DNA of 32,000 bases, taken from Candidatus Saccharimonadota bacterium. Lineage in GTDB: Bacteria > Patescibacteriota > Gracilibacteria > BD1-5 > UBA2023. The notes below the pieces were generated by a model. The model made no database searches. It was not told where the DNA came from and worked only from the letters and a program-made list of their open reading frames with translations. Shown piece by piece: positions 1 through 32,000 of this stretch. Position 1 is the first letter of the stretch, and each line of letters starts with the position of its first letter. The position numbers were made by a program, and so were the translations under genes. The DNA lies in contig BAAFHK010000001.1 in NCBI GenBank assembly GCA_042852035.1, positions 630,001 through 662,000 on the forward strand. The letters run 5' to 3'.

Positions 1-3000
1 TATTTCGTATTTTTTTCCAGAGCTTTTTAAGAATACCATCTTCTGGATTCATATAAAGCTCATAGTATATTCCTTTTACAACAAAAAGGGTTAACATTGA
101 GGCTGCCATGATACCGAAAATTATCGTGAATCCCATACCACTCCAAAATCGGTCTCGAAGAGCAATTGGGACGATACCAAGGACTGTTGTTACTGTAGTA
201 AGAAGCATTGGCTCAAGACGTGAAGATCAAGCTTCCACAAGTGCAGTAATTCCTTCAATTCATTTTTCAAGGTTTTCATTTATCGCAGCAATAAGGATTA
301 TCCCATGATTTACCGCGATTCCAGTAAAGGCAATAAATCAAATACCAAAAGGCATAGAGAATTGATTATCCGTGAGCAAAAGTCATATCATCACAAATGG
401 TAAAGAAGTGATAACTGAATAGAGGATAACCAAAGGCTGAGAAAAACTATTAAATTGAAGGGTAAGTATACCAAATATAAGAAGTAAGGCCATAAAGAAT
501 GCTGCCACCGTTGCAACAATAAGTTCACTATTTTCTTGGGCTTCGCCTCATGCCACATACGATATTCAGTGAGGATATTGGTAGCTCTTAGCAAATTCAA
601 GAAATTTTGCCTGAAGAGCTGTATTATTTTTTACATCTTCTGCATCAGCATCTATAGTTATCTGAATTTTTCCATCTTGTCGAGAGATATTCGCTGTGGC
701 ACTTGATAGGGTGCTCTCTATAAAGTCACCAACCCGGTAGGTAGTTGTTCAAAGAACAATAGGGAGAGAAAATATATTGTTCATATCAACACTTCCATCA
801 AACTGGGAAGACTTTACAAGTATATCAATATCATTTCCTCCGTCTTCAACGCTCGCAATCTTTACCCCATTCATGTTTTGAAGTATTTGAGCATAGAGAA
901 GCGCTGGTGATATTCCCGCGTTCGCAAGGGTATCCTTTTTGAGACTAAAAATAAATTGTCATGGAGTATCAGAACTCGATCGTCCGGCATTTTTTGTTCC
1001 AGGAAGGGACTTAAGATGTTTCTCGAAATCTCGAGAGACCCGTATAAGACTATCGAGATCACTCGCGTCATCAGCCTGGAGCTTAAGTCAAATTGCTTTT
1101 GATCCTGGAGGTCAACCCTTCAGAACTTCAGAAACTACTTTATATCACTTTGCCTCATAGGCTTGGAGTTTTGGGAGAAGAAGTTTTTCGATTTCAAAAA
1201 CGCTTCTTTCTCAATTTTTCTTTCTTTCCTCCTTCTTTGTGAGCTGAAGAGTAATATTTGCTACGTTAGCGTTTATATTAATAGTTGTATAATCGATTTC
1301 TGGATAACCGAGAAATATTTTATCAATTCAATCAAGATCACGAACAGTGACATCTGTTTTCTGACCAACCGGACCCGTGATAACTACAGTAGATATCCCA
1401 TTATCATCACTTGGAAAAAGTTCAAAACCAACCCGAGGAGCCAGCACAACAAAACCAAATATGAGAAACACAACTGGAAGAAATATTGAAAGCCTCCTGA
1501 GTTTTTTATGTTCAAGAAAATTTCTTAGAATTCTTTTATACCAAAGCGTAACGCCATGAATCACACGTATACGAAGAGGAGCACCAGCCTCTTCAATAGG
1601 AGTTTTTCAAACTCTTTCAAGCTCAAGAAGTTCTTTCTCCTCATCAGTGGCATACTCGATGGCATGATTATCTCTTACATAAGAGTTCAACTTTCTAACA
1701 AAAAGTAGGTAAAGTGCGCTATTTACAGTGATTACAAGAATTAAGCCTGTTGCAAGAACTCAGAAAATAGTAATCGGAATAAATGCAAGAAACTTCCCCA
1801 TAATTCCTGGAAGGAGCATCATCGGTATGAATACAACGATTGTTGTCATCACTCAGGAAATCACTGGTAAGGCATATTCTCGAAGGGCAAGCATAATAGC
1901 ACTTCTCGGATCATATCCGACTCTAATCTTCGCACTAGCAGCCTGAACTATAACGATAATCGTATCGACCGCTATACCGAATGAAAGTATGAGAGAAAAA
2001 TTTGTAAGAAAATTCATCGTATACCCTCAATAGTATAATATGATGAATGTCGAAAGAAACGCAAGAGGAAGAGTCACTGTAGCAAACAATGAGTCTCTAA
2101 AACCTACAAAGAGAAACATCGCAAAAAATACCAAAAGAATTGTTGTAGTAGCCTCCCTGAGAAGGATTTTATAGTCGTCAATAATATTGTCAGCAAGGTC
2201 ATTTCCATATGCATAGGCATATCCTTGGAAATCTTCTGATTGAAAAATTCGATCAACGGCCGCTTTAGCATTTTTTGCGACGGAGAAAATGCTTGCATTA
2301 TCATTTTTATTTACCGTAAGTCCGACATAGAGTCTTCCTTCATTTTCTGCAGGATTTGCACCTCACTTCACGAACATTCTTACAGACTCATTTTTATACT
2401 TTCTTTTTATGGTAGCTATCTCTTTAAGATTTGTTACTCATCATTTTGGGAGCGGTATTGGTACAGAGAGAAAGCCATAGGCCTTATCCTCCTTCCCTTC
2501 AATACGAAAGTCATATTTCTTGTCTCCTACACTAAAATTCCCAATCGGCTGATCACGATTATATGATTGAAGGACCTGAGAAACCGTTGAGAGTGAGAGT
2601 CAAAGACTATTGAGTTTCTCTTCTGGGATAATAATTTCAACATCATAGGTTGAATCATCTCCATTCGCTCATCCAAGCATGCTTCTTCTTCATGCTGCTC
2701 AGCTCGTAGCAATTTCAACACTATTAATACCGGGAGTAAGTTCCATCTCTTTCTTCAAGAGCTTTGCTCGTTCAAAAAGAGTATCGAGATCAGCGCTCCC
2801 AGATTTCTTATAGAGAAATACCGAAAATGCCATACTTGTATCCGTTTCTATCTCGGAAATTGTTGGAGACTTTGCGTCAGTAGGCAATACAGCTCGAGCA
2901 ACTGCAGACCGAACATCTGAGAGAACACTATCAACATCAGCACTTGTCTTAAGTGTAAGAGTGATACTCGAAAATCCAAGAGAAGAAGTAGAGTTTATCT

Positions 3001-3271
3001 TATCTACTCCATCAATATCTTTTATTTCTTTATAGATCTTATCCGTAACCAGCGTATCCATATCGACTGGATTCGTTCCAGGATATGCGGTAGATATACT
3101 AACCATACCGAGACTCACTGCTGGACTTGATTCTTTTGGGATACCCATAACTGCAACGATACCCATCGCAGCTATAGCCATAACTATAAGGTATGAAATT
3201 CGATACTTTCGAATCCAAAATCCGAGAAATCAGCGCTCGAATTTCTTTTCAAGTTCTTCTTTTCTATTCAT
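1..3271 (-). CDS. RND (AcrB/HAE-type) efflux permease; the C-terminal end runs off the left edge of the window
   Basis: One minus frame stays open from ATG 3271 to position 1, interrupted only by TGA. The N-terminus MNRKEELEKKFERGFLGFWIRKYRISYLIVMAIAAMGI is followed by ISTAYPGTNPVDMDTLVTDKIYKEI, a typical AcrB porter-domain start. The mid-protein segment LSIFLPVVFLIFGFVVLAPRVGFELFPSDDNGISTVVITGPVGQ matches the second-half TM7/porter junction. The C-terminal segment is LTLFVVKGIYYEL. The ATG lies 1 nt after the stop of the upstream MFP gene. Confidence 0.85.
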
Positions 3272-3272
3272 A

Positions 3273-30271: not shown

Positions 30272-30323
30272 TTGTTGGTTTTTTTACATGACTCTGGTAT
30301 GCTAATAAAGCACTCTACTTACC

Positions 30324-32000
30324 ATGAAATTTCAAAAGACATTTTACCCATACCAGAATGAGATTCTTTCTGTATTTGAAGAAGAAAGAAAGCGTTGAGA
30401 TAAAAAAATTCATATTGTTGCTCCTCCGTGATCTGGAAAAACTATTCTTGGTGCTGAGATACTTTGTCGTATTGCGGAACCAGCCCTCATACTTGTTCCG
30501 AATCTCACGCTTCTTTGACAGTGGCAGGATAAAATTGAATCACTTTTTCTTGAAGAAGGAGAAAATGCTGAAGAACTGATTTCGACAAATGCTGGTACTG
30601 TAAAAAGAATAAATATCCTCACGTATCAATCACTCACAGGAACGAATGATGAAGAAGATGACGAGATAAAAAATGAGATTTATAATCTTTGGTATGAAAG
30701 CGAGAAGAACGATTTTCCAGAAAAAGAAGTTTTTATCCAGTTTCTTAAAGAACTCAAAGAATCAAACCCAGATGAATATCAAGAAGGTTATGTAAAACAA
30801 AGAAAAAAAATAAAGAACCGCGGTGATTCAATCAATACCAGAAAAATGATGCGAGAAAGGATTTTTGACTATATTAAGCAACTCAAAGAATATGGAGTAA
30901 AAGCTCTTATCGTAGATGAGGCACACCATCTGACATCTTGGTGGTCGCATGTGCTCTACGAAATATGGAATGAATTAGATAAGCCTTATATAGTTTGACT
31001 TACGGCCACTCCACCATTCGACAATGTTGATTATTTCGAACTCGATGAAAGTTATACGAAGCTCCTTGGGAAGGTGGACTATATTGTACCAACTCCAGCA
31101 ATTGTCAGAAGCGGTAGACTTGCCCCCTATTCTGATTTACTGTATATTGTAGAACCAGATAGTACCCTCCAAGAAATTCTTAGAAAAAGAGAAGATTCTC
31201 TCGGAGTTTTTATCGAGAATCATAAAACTGAGATAAGCCAATCCCTACATGATATTCTCATAAAAGATTACGAAAACCTGAAGATAAAATCCGGAAATCT
31301 CTGCGATAAATGGATGCGATTTATCTATACCTACAAATCAGAAAGTATTGATATGTGACCGTATATCCATTGAGGAATAGACGGAAACATAAGCCTCGAA
31401 GATATAGCAAAAAGTATTGGAAAATGGGCAAATGATACCTTTAAAAAAACGAAAGAAACCTCAATATTTAATGAGGTAAAATCATTATTTTTTGACCTCG
31501 GATACATATGGAGGTGAGCAAATCTTTATCGATTTGAGACCCCCCTTGAGAAGTGACTCATCTATGCAAAATCAAAAATAGATGGTGTGAAATCTATCCT
31601 AAAAAAGGAAGAGGAGAATCTCTCAAAAGACCTCAAGTGTGCTATTATTACAGATTTTCTTGATGCTGAATCAGATTGGATAAATTGTCATAGCATCTTT
31701 GATGAACTTACAAAAGACTTTTCACACCTTTGCCCTTATATTGTATCAGGAAAAGGAATCTGGAAATACGAGAATGGAGAAAAAACTCAATGCCCCAACG
31801 AAACCATCCTCTCAGTGACTGCTAAGCTCATGAGATGAGATACAAGGCTGGTAATTGGAACAAGAGGGATCCTCGGTGAATGATGGGATTGCCCAAAGCT
31901 GAACACTCTTATAGATCTTACCTGAGTAAGTGCCTATATGAGCGTCAACCAAGTTCATGGACGAGCCATACGACTTGATCCAGAAAATGCAGAAAAAGTA
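30324..32000 (+). CDS. SF2 DEAH-box helicase (ResIII-like), 3' end beyond the window
   Basis: Motif I is HIVAPPGSGKT, motif Ia is LILVPNLTLLGQW, motif II is LIVDEAHH and motif III is GLTATPPF. The C-terminal RecA motifs read GTRGILGEGWDCPKLNTLIDLTGVSAYMSVNQVHGRAIR. Track ORFs 31074 and 31587 are in the same frame as ATG 30324. Confidence 0.85.

What the first reader, a model, noticed from the sequence alone, without database searches (positions are those of the whole stretch)
1..32000. TGA is a sense codon for glycine throughout the window (genetic code 25), so the standard ORF track is misleading
Seen in sequence: nearly every recognisable gene is broken by in-frame TGA but never by TAA or TAG. 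The TGAs also land on invariant glycines:
- HtpX EIE-TGA-VVGHEMAH (6002-6004) and LIQ-TGA-V (6068-6070; E. coli has LIQGV).
- Patatin G-G-TGA-TGA-A-R-G (8041-8046, minus strand).
- HsdM LFE-TGA-GAGE (20776-20778).
- Pseudouridine synthase RLDKETT-TGA-LIILTNDG (25053-25055, minus strand).
- TPM protein NENGI-TGA and its tail FDG-TGA-GG (27180-27182).

Established knowledge: UGA=Gly is the code-25 reassignment known from Gracilibacteria (BD1-5) and Absconditabacteria (SR1).

Inference: the fragment comes from one of these CPR lineages. All gene models must be rebuilt with transl_table 25. Several genes (X2, the triple-pilin protein, the vWA protein) are invisible in the supplied track.
Basis: partly seen in the sequence, partly recalled or inferred. 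Interest (0 to 1): 0.8.

Follow-up and report, generated by a model that had tools for sequence, protein, structure and literature searches.

The report
TGA read as glycine (code 25)
This DNA comes from an uncultured Gracilibacteria bacterium that reads the usual stop codon TGA as glycine; the phenomenon is already well known, but standard gene finders shred or miss every gene here unless they are told about it.

Summary
With TAA and TAG as the only stops, 22 genes tile 89% of the window. They carry 201 in-frame TGA codons, at least one per gene, and all 20 complete genes end in TAA or TAG.

TGA means glycine, not tryptophan:
- In 98 standard-code HsdR homologues, 9 of 13 TGA columns are at least 93/98 Gly.
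- In 103 distant RND homologues, TGA columns hold 32% Gly, like GGN columns (38%). Background is 6.5%.
- Log-odds over 31 columns: Gly +32, Ala -52, Trp -132.
- In 80 related loci, window TGA codons align to GGN (45%) or TGA (22%) and to TGG once in 1048.

The closest relatives are Candidatus Gracilibacteria MAGs: 74-80% identity for the pseudouridine synthase, with the same gene order. All of them also carry in-frame TGA. Sixteen standard-code outgroups carry none.

CGA and CGG still align with arginine, so the extra Absconditabacteria-type reassignments are absent.

The window holds only tRNA-Lys, so tRNA-Gly(UCA) and loss of RF2 could not be tested.

This is a known code in a known lineage: low novelty, real importance for annotation.

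The parts
1..3271 (-). RND/AcrB-family efflux permease. Its C-terminus runs off the left edge of the window. 25 in-frame TGA.
   Evidence: Pfam ACR_tran 6e-112, profile positions 2-1018 of 1021. TGA columns are a G/W mix in close relatives. In 103 distant standard-code-like homologues they are 32% Gly, with two columns at 102/103 Gly.
3273..5096 (-). Membrane-fusion (HlyD-like) protein. 9 TGA; stop TAA.
   Evidence: Weak Pfam HlyD_D23/HlyD_3 hits. Syntenic with the RND gene in Gracilibacteria loci.
5561..6457 (+). HtpX-type M48 protease. 3 TGA, including 6002-6004 and 6068-6070; stop TAG.
   Evidence: Pfam Peptidase_M48 1.7e-36. In PDB 3cqb the first listed TGA position is Ala.
6526..7296 (+). 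Hypothetical membrane/coiled-coil protein. 3 TGA.
   Evidence: No Pfam hit. The ORF is open only when TGA is read as sense.
7270..8106 (-). Patatin-like phospholipase. 6 TGA, including the tandem TGA-TGA at 8041-8046 in the G-G-G-x-R-G oxyanion motif.
   Evidence: Pfam Patatin 3.5e-26. Residues aligned to the TGAs in PDB PlpD and VipD: G, A/G, G.
8160..9173 (+). vWA-domain membrane protein. 6 TGA. No in-frame ORF in the table-11 ORF list.
   Evidence: Pfam VWA_2 8.8e-12. The ORF listing shows no + strand ORF in its frame.
9228..9304 (+). tRNA-Lys(CTT), the only tRNA in the window.
   Evidence: ARAGORN. The same tRNA sits at the syntenic position in L009, L021, L023 and L025.
9461..11779 (+). 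AAA+ ATPase with a long N-terminal region of unknown function. 22 TGA. First gene of the block that is absent from syntenic relatives.
   Evidence: Pfam AAA 2e-11. No PADLOC or NCBIfam hit. Absent from the syntenic loci.
12624..15440 (+). Type I restriction enzyme R subunit (HsdR). 13 TGA.
   Evidence: Pfam ResIII, EcoEI_R_C and HSDR_N. In 98 standard-code homologues, 9 of 13 TGA columns are at least 93/98 Gly.
15767..16750 (+). Hypothetical protein inside the hsd operon. 18 TGA, which is 67% of its Gly codons.
   Evidence: No hit in Pfam, PADLOC or NCBIfam. No in-frame table-11 ORF. TGA excess P=2e-4.
16708..17355 (+). Hypothetical membrane protein inside the hsd operon. 3 TGA.
   Evidence: No family hit.
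17339..18706 (+). Type I specificity subunit (HsdS). 16 TGA.
   Evidence: Pfam Methylase_S 1.5e-15, two stretches.
18716..19795 (+). Hypothetical protein between hsdS and hsdM. 6 TGA.
   Evidence: No family hit.
19804..21279 (+). Type I methyltransferase subunit (HsdM). 3 TGA, including 20776-20778.
   Evidence: Pfam N6_Mtase 3e-70. PDB 2okc 4e-130; the residue aligned to the LFE-x-GAGE TGA is A in StySJI and G in EcoKI.
21887..22786 (-). Protein with three T4SS-pilin-like domains. 8 TGA. No in-frame ORF in the table-11 list.
   Evidence: Pfam T4SS_pilin 8e-19, three stretches. The ORF listing.
22823..24076 (-). Hypothetical Pro/Ser-rich protein with a coiled-coil tail. 9 TGA.
   Evidence: No Pfam hit. 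Conserved next to the pilin gene in relatives.
24555..25373 (-). RsuA/RluB/RluF-family rRNA pseudouridine synthase. 3 TGA, including 25053-25055.
   Evidence: Pfam PseudoU_synth_2 plus S4. TIGR00093 above its cut-off. PDB RluF and RluB have G at both alignable TGAs. Sixteen of 16 standard-code outgroups have GGN at positions 107 and 202.
25408..26184 (-). Hypothetical protein. 10 TGA.
   Evidence: Conserved next to the synthase gene in 30 related loci.
26286..27218 (+). TPM-domain protein with a Gly/Ser-rich tail. 11 TGA, including 26511-26513 and 27180-27182.
   Evidence: Pfam TPM_phosphatase 5.8e-22. PDB 5anp, 7tbr and 2kw7 all have G at the GI-x position.
27226..27672 (+). Small hypothetical membrane protein. 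1 TGA.
   Evidence: Conserved in synteny.
27785..28912 (+). Conserved hypothetical protein with a weak TelA-like hit. 3 TGA; stop TAG.
   Evidence: 74-90% identical in Gracilibacteria loci. Pfam TelA is below threshold.
29033..30271 (+). Hypothetical membrane protein. 12 TGA.
   Evidence: Conserved in synteny. No Pfam hit.
30324..32000 (+). ResIII/DEAD-type helicase-like protein. It runs off the right edge of the window. 11 TGA.
   Evidence: Pfam ResIII 3e-22 and DEAD.

Best explanation
The window is a chromosomal fragment of a Gracilibacteria (BD1-5) bacterium that uses NCBI genetic code 25. UGA is an ordinary glycine codon, supplying about 32% of all Gly codons here. Only UAA and UAG end translation.

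Shown here:
- TGA is read through in all 22 genes.
- TGA occupies glycine positions.
- TGA interchanges with GGN, and not with TGG, among relatives.
- All other tested codons keep their standard meaning, including CGA, CGG and TGG.
- The lineage is Gracilibacteria.

Inferred from published work on this clade, not shown here: UGA is decoded by a tRNA-Gly with anticodon UCA that carries glycine identity elements (G1:C72, C2:G71, G3:C70, U73), and release factor 2 has been lost, so UGA no longer terminates.
For: Sense reading.
- Freeing TGA alone raises the longest ORF from 253 to 1094 aa.
- 22 genes cover 89% of the window with 201 in-frame TGA, and all complete genes stop at TAA or TAG.
- Pfam models span the TGAs at full length.

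Glycine meaning.
- HsdR against 98 standard-code homologues: 9 of 13 TGA columns are at least 93/98 Gly, and one more is 65/98.
- The all-codon control on the same alignment recovers the standard amino acid for every codon. It gives TGA->G at 8 of 9 conserved columns and TGG->W at 6 of 6.
- RND against 103 distant homologues: TGA columns are 32% Gly, GGN columns 38%, background 6.5%.
- Summed log-odds over 31 columns: Gly +32.2, next best Ala -51.5, Trp -132.4, the lowest of all.
- In solved structures the aligned residues are G or A and never W.
- Composition: reading TGA as Gly gives 6.6% Gly and 0.84% Trp. Reading it as Trp gives 4.5% Gly and an abnormal 3.0% Trp.

Codon-level evidence.
- Across 80 related loci, window TGA aligns to GGN 45%, TGA 22% and TGG 0.1%. 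Window TGG aligns to TGG 72%.
- At the pseudouridine-synthase positions 107 and 202, 16 of 16 standard-code outgroups have GGN. The recoded clade has only TGA or GGN.

Lineage.
- The best named homologues are Candidatus Gracilibacteria and 'uncultured bacterium (gcode 4)' ACD_71C.
- The best genome loci are Gracilibacteria MAGs at 74-80% identity with conserved gene order.
- Every relative at 47% identity or more has in-frame TGA, and 16 outgroups have none.

Literature.
- Code 25 in Gracilibacteria and Absconditabacteria, with tRNA-Gly(UCA) present and RF2 absent (PMC8629427).
- Proteomic proof of UGA=Gly in a BD1-5 bacterium: 97 peptides unique to the Gly translation against 3 unique to the Trp translation (PMC4032931).
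Against: - The decoding machinery was not seen. The window holds only tRNA-Lys(CTT), and 60 related loci hold no tRNA with anticodon UCA. Presence or absence of prfB cannot be judged from 32 kb.
- Some TGA codons sit in variable or gapped columns where homologues have S, D, A or other residues. Examples are HsdR positions 61, 250 and 405 and several RND columns. This is expected for non-conserved glycines, but those codons are individually uninformative.
- There is no protein-level evidence for this organism.
Confidence: 0.96

Rival explanations
1. Genetic code 4: TGA is read as tryptophan, as in Mycoplasmatales and some insect endosymbionts.
For: Several public gene callers translated the same or related sequences with TGA=W. 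P0001 is identical to the window's HsdR except for W at all 13 TGA positions. One close homologue is labelled 'gcode 4'. Those are choices made by software, not evidence about the organism.
Against: - Trp has the lowest log-odds of all 20 amino acids at TGA columns, -132 against +32 for Gly.
- Standard-code homologues have W at essentially none of the TGA columns.
- Window TGA aligns to TGG in 1 of 1048 codon comparisons.
- Trp content would be an abnormal 3.0%.
- True TGG columns behave quite differently: W 66-82%, G 2%.
Confidence: 0.005
2. Standard code: the TGAs are real stops. The genes would then be pseudogenes, assembly or sequencing errors, or rare programmed events such as read-through or selenocysteine.
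For: None beyond the default assumption of table 11.
Against: - There are 201 in-frame TGA but zero in-frame TAA or TAG across 9473 codons; chance is about e^-337.
- Homology continues at full length past every TGA.
- The same TGA positions are conserved in dozens of independent assemblies.
- The aligned residues are Gly, not Cys, which rules out selenocysteine.
Confidence: 0.002
3. The fragment is from Absconditabacteria (SR1), or from a phage or plasmid of a code-25 host, rather than from a Gracilibacteria chromosome.
For: - Absconditabacteria share code 25 (PMC8629427).
- The window includes a type I R-M block beside a tRNA gene and a T4SS-pilin-like gene.
Against: - The top 30 or so genome loci are named Candidatus Gracilibacteria, or mislabelled 'Peribacteria' that also carry in-frame TGA. 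Several lie on contigs of 150-320 kb.
- Gene order is conserved over about 20 kb, including housekeeping genes: HtpX, the pseudouridine synthase, tRNA-Lys and the RND pump.
- CGA (109 codons) and CGG (16) align with Arg. Absconditabacteria are predicted to read both as Trp and to use them rarely (PMC8629427).
Confidence: 0.03

Closest known systems
NCBI genetic code 25 (Candidate Division SR1 and Gracilibacteria code): UGA=Gly (Campbell et al. 2013; Rinke et al. 2013, as cited in PMC8629427; proteomic validation in PMC4032931)
   Same: UGA is a frequent sense codon at glycine positions. UAA and UAG are the only stops. The genome has low GC (38%). The closest relatives are Gracilibacteria MAGs that show the same TGA/GGN interchange.
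   Different: Nothing differs in kind. The defining tRNA-Gly(UCA) and the absence of RF2 could not be checked in 32 kb.
Absconditabacteria extended code (UGA=Gly plus CGA/CGG=Trp; Shulgina & Eddy 2021, PMC8629427)
   Same: It shares the UGA=Gly reassignment and is the sister lineage.
   Different: Here CGA is common (109 codons) and CGG is present (16). Both align with conserved Arg columns: CGA 7 of 8, CGG 3 of 3. The extra Arg-to-Trp reassignments are therefore not in use.
Genetic code 4 (UGA=Trp; Mycoplasmatales, Entomoplasmatales, some endosymbionts)
   Same: UGA is a sense codon, the genome is AT-rich, and RF2 is presumed lost.
   Different: The amino-acid meaning differs. Here the TGA columns are Gly, and Trp is the worst-fitting residue.

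Membership tests
Genetic code 25 (UGA=Gly) | UGA occurs in frame, frequently, inside genes that are otherwise intact | tested here: met
   201 in-frame TGA in 22 of 22 genes. Pfam and PDB alignments run at full length across them.
Genetic code 25 (UGA=Gly) | UGA positions correspond to glycine in homologues from standard-code organisms | tested here: met
   HsdR has 9 of 13 columns at 93/98 Gly or more. RND TGA columns are 32% Gly against a 6.5% background. Log-odds: Gly +32, Ala -52, Trp -132. Outgroup codons are GGN in 16 of 16 at two synthase sites.
Genetic code 25 (UGA=Gly) | UAA and UAG remain stop codons | tested here: met
   All 20 complete genes end in TAA (16) or TAG (4), and none has an in-frame TAA or TAG. 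Freeing TAA or TAG instead of TGA does not lengthen ORFs.
Genetic code 25 (UGA=Gly) | A tRNA with anticodon UCA and glycine identity elements (G1:C72, C2:G71, G3:C70, U73) | not testable with these tools
   The only tRNA in the window is tRNA-Lys(CTT). Sixty related loci hold no tRNA(UCA). The rest of the genome cannot be reached. The identity rule is taken from PMC8629427.
Genetic code 25 (UGA=Gly) | Release factor 2 (prfB) absent from the genome | not testable with these tools
   None of the window's genes matched a release-factor family in the scans run, but 32 kb says nothing about the whole genome.
Genetic code 25 (UGA=Gly) | Phylogenetic placement in Gracilibacteria or Absconditabacteria | tested here: met
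   The best loci are Candidatus Gracilibacteria MAGs at 74-80% identity with shared gene order. The named protein hits are Gracilibacteria. This rests on best hits and synteny, not on a marker-gene tree.
Absconditabacteria extended code (CGA/CGG=Trp) | CGA and CGG are rare and align with tryptophan | tested here: not met
   There are 109 CGA and 16 CGG codons in 9493. At conserved HsdR columns CGA is R in 7 of 8 and CGG is R in 3 of 3, never W.
Genetic code 4 (UGA=Trp) | UGA positions correspond to tryptophan | tested here: not met
   W is essentially absent from TGA columns in standard-code homologues. TGA aligns to TGG in 1 of 1048 cases.

The most novel reading that the evidence does not exclude
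The code itself is not new. The most novel reading left open concerns the roughly 12.5 kb block at 9305-21886, next to tRNA-Lys(CTT). This block is absent from otherwise syntenic Gracilibacteria genomes.

It holds an AAA+ ATPase with a large N-terminal region of unknown function and a type I R-M operon. The operon is interrupted by three genes with no family match (15767-16750, 16708-17355, 18716-19795).

The block could be a mobile defence island carrying uncharacterised defence components native to code-25 hosts. The very uneven TGA share of glycine codons (HsdM 10% against 57-67% for hsdS and the embedded gene at 15767-16750) could mark how long each gene has lived under code 25. On that reading hsdM would be a recent import from a standard-code donor.
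Probability: 0.25. Interest if true: 0.35.

Novelty: already known. Interest (0 to 1): 0.15.

Why it matters
The practical consequence is large. The scientific surprise is small.

Under table 11 every gene in this window is split at in-frame TGA codons. Some genes vanish from an ORF list altogether: the vWA protein, the triple-pilin protein and the gene at 15767-16750. Spurious ORFs appear on the opposite strand.

Under table 4, which several public pipelines evidently used for these sequences, about 2% of residues are wrongly written as Trp instead of Gly. That includes catalytic-motif glycines, such as the patatin oxyanion hole and the pseudouridine-synthase core. Such errors corrupt databases, profile models and structure predictions.

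Any further analysis of this window must use table 25.

The reassignment has been known since 2013, has been confirmed by proteomics, and has its own NCBI table. This window only adds one more Gracilibacteria fragment.

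Tried and rejected
- Code 4 (TGA=Trp) was tested explicitly and rejected.
- Absconditabacteria-type CGA/CGG=Trp was tested on HsdR and rejected.
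- I looked for tRNA-Gly(UCA) in the window and in 60 related loci. None was found, which is uninformative because only about 20 kb per genome is reachable.
The 80%-identical homologue P0121 was used instead.
- The first 120 RND homologues were nearly all from recoded relatives. A naive count of Gly there would have been circular, so I used them only to compare TGA, GGN and TGG column profiles. The independent test used distant representatives with normal Trp content.
- I tried to trace the source contig through P0001. This gave only a 3 kb Logan contig from run DRR350542.
- PADLOC and NCBIfam scans of the genes embedded in the hsd operon, and of the other hypothetical proteins, found nothing.
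- The answer was already overdetermined.

Full report
**1. The observation**

The window has 38% GC.
- Under the standard bacterial code the longest stop-to-stop ORF is 253 aa.
- Removing TGA from the stop set gives ORFs up to 1094 aa.
- Removing TAA or TAG instead gives at most 273 aa. The effect is therefore specific to TGA.

With TAA and TAG as the only stops, 22 genes tile 88.7% of the window.
- They contain 201 in-frame TGA codons in 9473 codons.
- Every gene has at least one.
- The 20 genes that end inside the window stop at TAA (16) or TAG (4).
- TAA plus TAG occur at 35.6 per 1000 codons in the two off-frames of the same genes. The chance of their complete absence in frame is about e^-337.

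Pfam models align across the TGAs at full length. ACR_tran covers profile positions 2-1018 of 1021 across 25 TGAs. Other matches are ResIII/EcoEI_R_C/HSDR_N (HsdR), N6_Mtase/HsdM_N, Methylase_S, Peptidase_M48, Patatin, VWA, AAA, three T4SS_pilin domains, PseudoU_synth_2 plus S4, TPM, and a ResIII/DEAD helicase.

The table-11 ORF list (60 aa or more) has no in-frame ORF for three genes: the triple-pilin gene, the vWA gene and the gene at 15767-16750. The remark that the standard ORF track misleads is correct.

**2. Which amino acid?**

*HsdR.* A database search returned 120 homologues. Of these, 98 are less than 58% identical to the query. The ones that carry a source name come from ordinary lineages (Planctomycetes, Desulfobulbaceae, Nitrospiria, Dehalococcoidia and others).
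- In those 98, nine of the 13 TGA columns are at least 93/98 Gly.
- A tenth column is 65/98 Gly.
- The remaining three are variable or gapped.

As a control I inferred the meaning of every codon from the conserved columns of the same alignment. All sense codons came out with their standard amino acid. TGG gave W at 6 of 6 columns and TGA gave G at 8 of 9.

*RND pump.* The nearest 120 homologues are almost all from recoded relatives. Many were translated by public pipelines with TGA=W, so I used them only comparatively.

| Query codon class | Gly in homologues | Trp in homologues |
|---|---|---|
| TGA columns | 50% | 29% |
| GGN columns | 51% | 19% |
| TGG columns | 2% | 66% |

The TGA and GGN profiles match, and the TGG profile is quite different.

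An independent set gave the same answer. It comprised 103 distant representatives, below 36% identity and with normal Trp content. TGA columns were 32% Gly and GGN columns 38%, against a 6.5% background. Two TGA columns were 102/103 Gly.

*Combined.* Summed log-odds over the 31 usable TGA columns of both proteins are Gly +32.2, Ala -51.5 and Ser -51.7. Trp is -132.4, the worst of the twenty.

*Solved structures.* These agree.
- Both alignable TGAs of the pseudouridine synthase are Gly in RluF and RluB.
- The patatin G-G-x-x-A-R-G and AHI-x-V sites are G, A/G and G.
- The TPM GI-x site is Gly in three structures.
- HsdM LFE-x-GAGE is Ala or Gly.
- HtpX EIE-x-VVGHE is Ala in 3cqb.

No site argues for Trp.

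*Composition.* Composition points the same way.

| Reading of TGA | Gly content | Trp content |
|---|---|---|
| Gly | 6.6% | 0.84% |
| Trp | 4.5% | 3.0% |

**3. Codon-level evidence and lineage**

A scan of one genome per species with the pseudouridine synthase returned 80 loci. The best 30 or so are Candidatus Gracilibacteria MAGs, or records labelled 'Peribacteria' or 'Patescibacteria group', at 65-80% identity.

I ran tblastn with all 22 window proteins against these 1.2 Mb and recorded the aligned subject codons.

| Window codon | Aligned to GGN | to TGA | to TGG |
|---|---|---|---|
| TGA | 45% | 22% | 0.1% (1 of 1048) |
| GGN | 59% | 17% | 0% |
| TGG | 0.3% | 4% | 72% |

Every locus whose synthase is at least 47% identical carries in-frame TGA, at 3-79 per 1000 codons. 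Sixteen outgroup loci carry none. They are named Peregrinibacteria, Saganbacteria, Uhrbacteria, Erysipelotrichaceae and Nitrospirae, plus a few records with only generic names.

At synthase positions 107 and 202, all 16 outgroups have GGN. The recoded clade has only TGA or GGN.

Four loci (L009, L021, L023, L025) share the window's gene order over about 20 kb, including tRNA-Lys(CTT). Several of the syntenic loci lie on contigs of 150-320 kb. The window is therefore chromosomal Gracilibacteria DNA.

P0001, from a Logan assembly of run DRR350542, is identical to the window's HsdR except that all 13 TGAs are written as W. That is a code-4 gene call.

**4. Beyond code 25?**

Shulgina and Eddy (PMC8629427) predicted that Absconditabacteria also read CGA and CGG as Trp, and that some Gracilibacteria may read CGG as Trp.

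Here CGA is common (109 codons) and CGG is present (16). At conserved HsdR columns CGA is Arg in 7 of 8 and CGG is Arg in 3 of 3. No further reassignment is indicated, although the CGG sample is small.

**5. Mechanism**

Shown here:
- UGA is translated as glycine.
- UAA and UAG terminate.
- The other tested codons have their standard meaning.

Inferred from the literature on this clade:
- decoding by a tRNA-Gly(UCA) with glycine identity elements, and loss of RF2 (PMC8629427);
- direct proteomic proof in another BD1-5 bacterium (PMC4032931).

Neither inference can be tested here. The window has only tRNA-Lys(CTT), and the rest of the genome is out of reach.

**6. Comparison and verdict**

This is genetic code 25 in a member of the lineage for which the code was defined. 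All testable defining features are met. Two, tRNA-Gly(UCA) and RF2 loss, are untestable in 32 kb.

Code 4 and the Absconditabacteria extended code each fail a defining test.

The finding is correct and matters for annotation, but it is already known. Interest is low.

**7. Side observations**

Relative to the syntenic relatives, the window has two extra pieces.
- A block of about 12.5 kb (9305-21886) lies beside tRNA-Lys. It holds an AAA+ ATPase and a type I R-M operon with three embedded genes that have no family match.
- The patatin gene and its neighbour (6526-8106) are also extra.

The share of Gly codons written as TGA is 32% overall but varies between genes.
- It is 10% in hsdM (P=0.004 for so low a value).
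- It is 57-67% in hsdS and the gene at 15767-16750.
- This may reflect different residence times under code 25. I did not test that idea.

Noticed in passing
window 9305-21886: A block of about 12.5 kb lies directly next to tRNA-Lys(CTT). It holds an AAA+ ATPase (9461-11779) and a type I R-M operon (hsdR, hsdS, hsdM). It is absent from the otherwise syntenic Gracilibacteria loci L009, L021, L023 and L025, where the pilin gene is followed directly by tRNA-Lys. It looks like an inserted defence island. No integrase or flanking repeat was looked for.
   Followed up: partly
window 15767-16750, 16708-17355, 18716-19795: Three genes are embedded inside the type I R-M operon: two between hsdR and hsdS, and one between hsdS and hsdM. 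None matches Pfam, PADLOC or NCBIfam. One is a predicted membrane protein. Their function is unknown.
   Followed up: partly
window 19804-21279 versus 15767-16750 and 17339-18706: The share of Gly codons written as TGA is uneven. It is 10% in hsdM (3 of 31, P=0.004 low), 67% in the gene at 15767-16750 (P=2e-4 high) and 57% in hsdS. Overall it is 32%. HsdM also matches StySJI M (PDB 2okc) at 4e-130. Recent import of hsdM from a standard-code donor is one possible reason; this was not tested.
   Followed up: partly
window 6526-8106: The patatin-like phospholipase gene and the adjacent hypothetical gene lie between vWA and HtpX. They are missing at this position in the syntenic relatives L009, L021, L023 and L025.
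   Followed up: no
window 21887-22786 (-): A single 299-aa protein carries three tandem T4SS-pilin-like domains (Pfam PF18895, three stretches). It is conserved next to a Pro/Ser-rich coiled-coil protein (22823-24076) in several related Gracilibacteria loci.
   Followed up: no
P0001 (Logan DRR350542) and many homologues: Public protein collections hold these Gracilibacteria proteins translated with code 4. P0001 equals the window's HsdR with W at all 13 TGA positions. The resulting false Trp shows up as G/W-mixed columns in alignments.
   Followed up: yes
loci L009, L010, L016, L021, L025, L038, L039, L052, L053, L064: These records are titled 'uncultured Candidatus Peribacteria bacterium'. 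They carry in-frame TGA at 4-61 per 1000 codons in the matched genes, and several share gene order with the window. They therefore behave as code-25 Gracilibacteria, not as standard-code Peregrinibacteria/Peribacteria. The taxonomic labels look unreliable.
   Followed up: partly
It passes only the general TIGR00093 subfamily cut-off. It should be called an RsuA/RluB/RluF-family synthase.
   Followed up: yes
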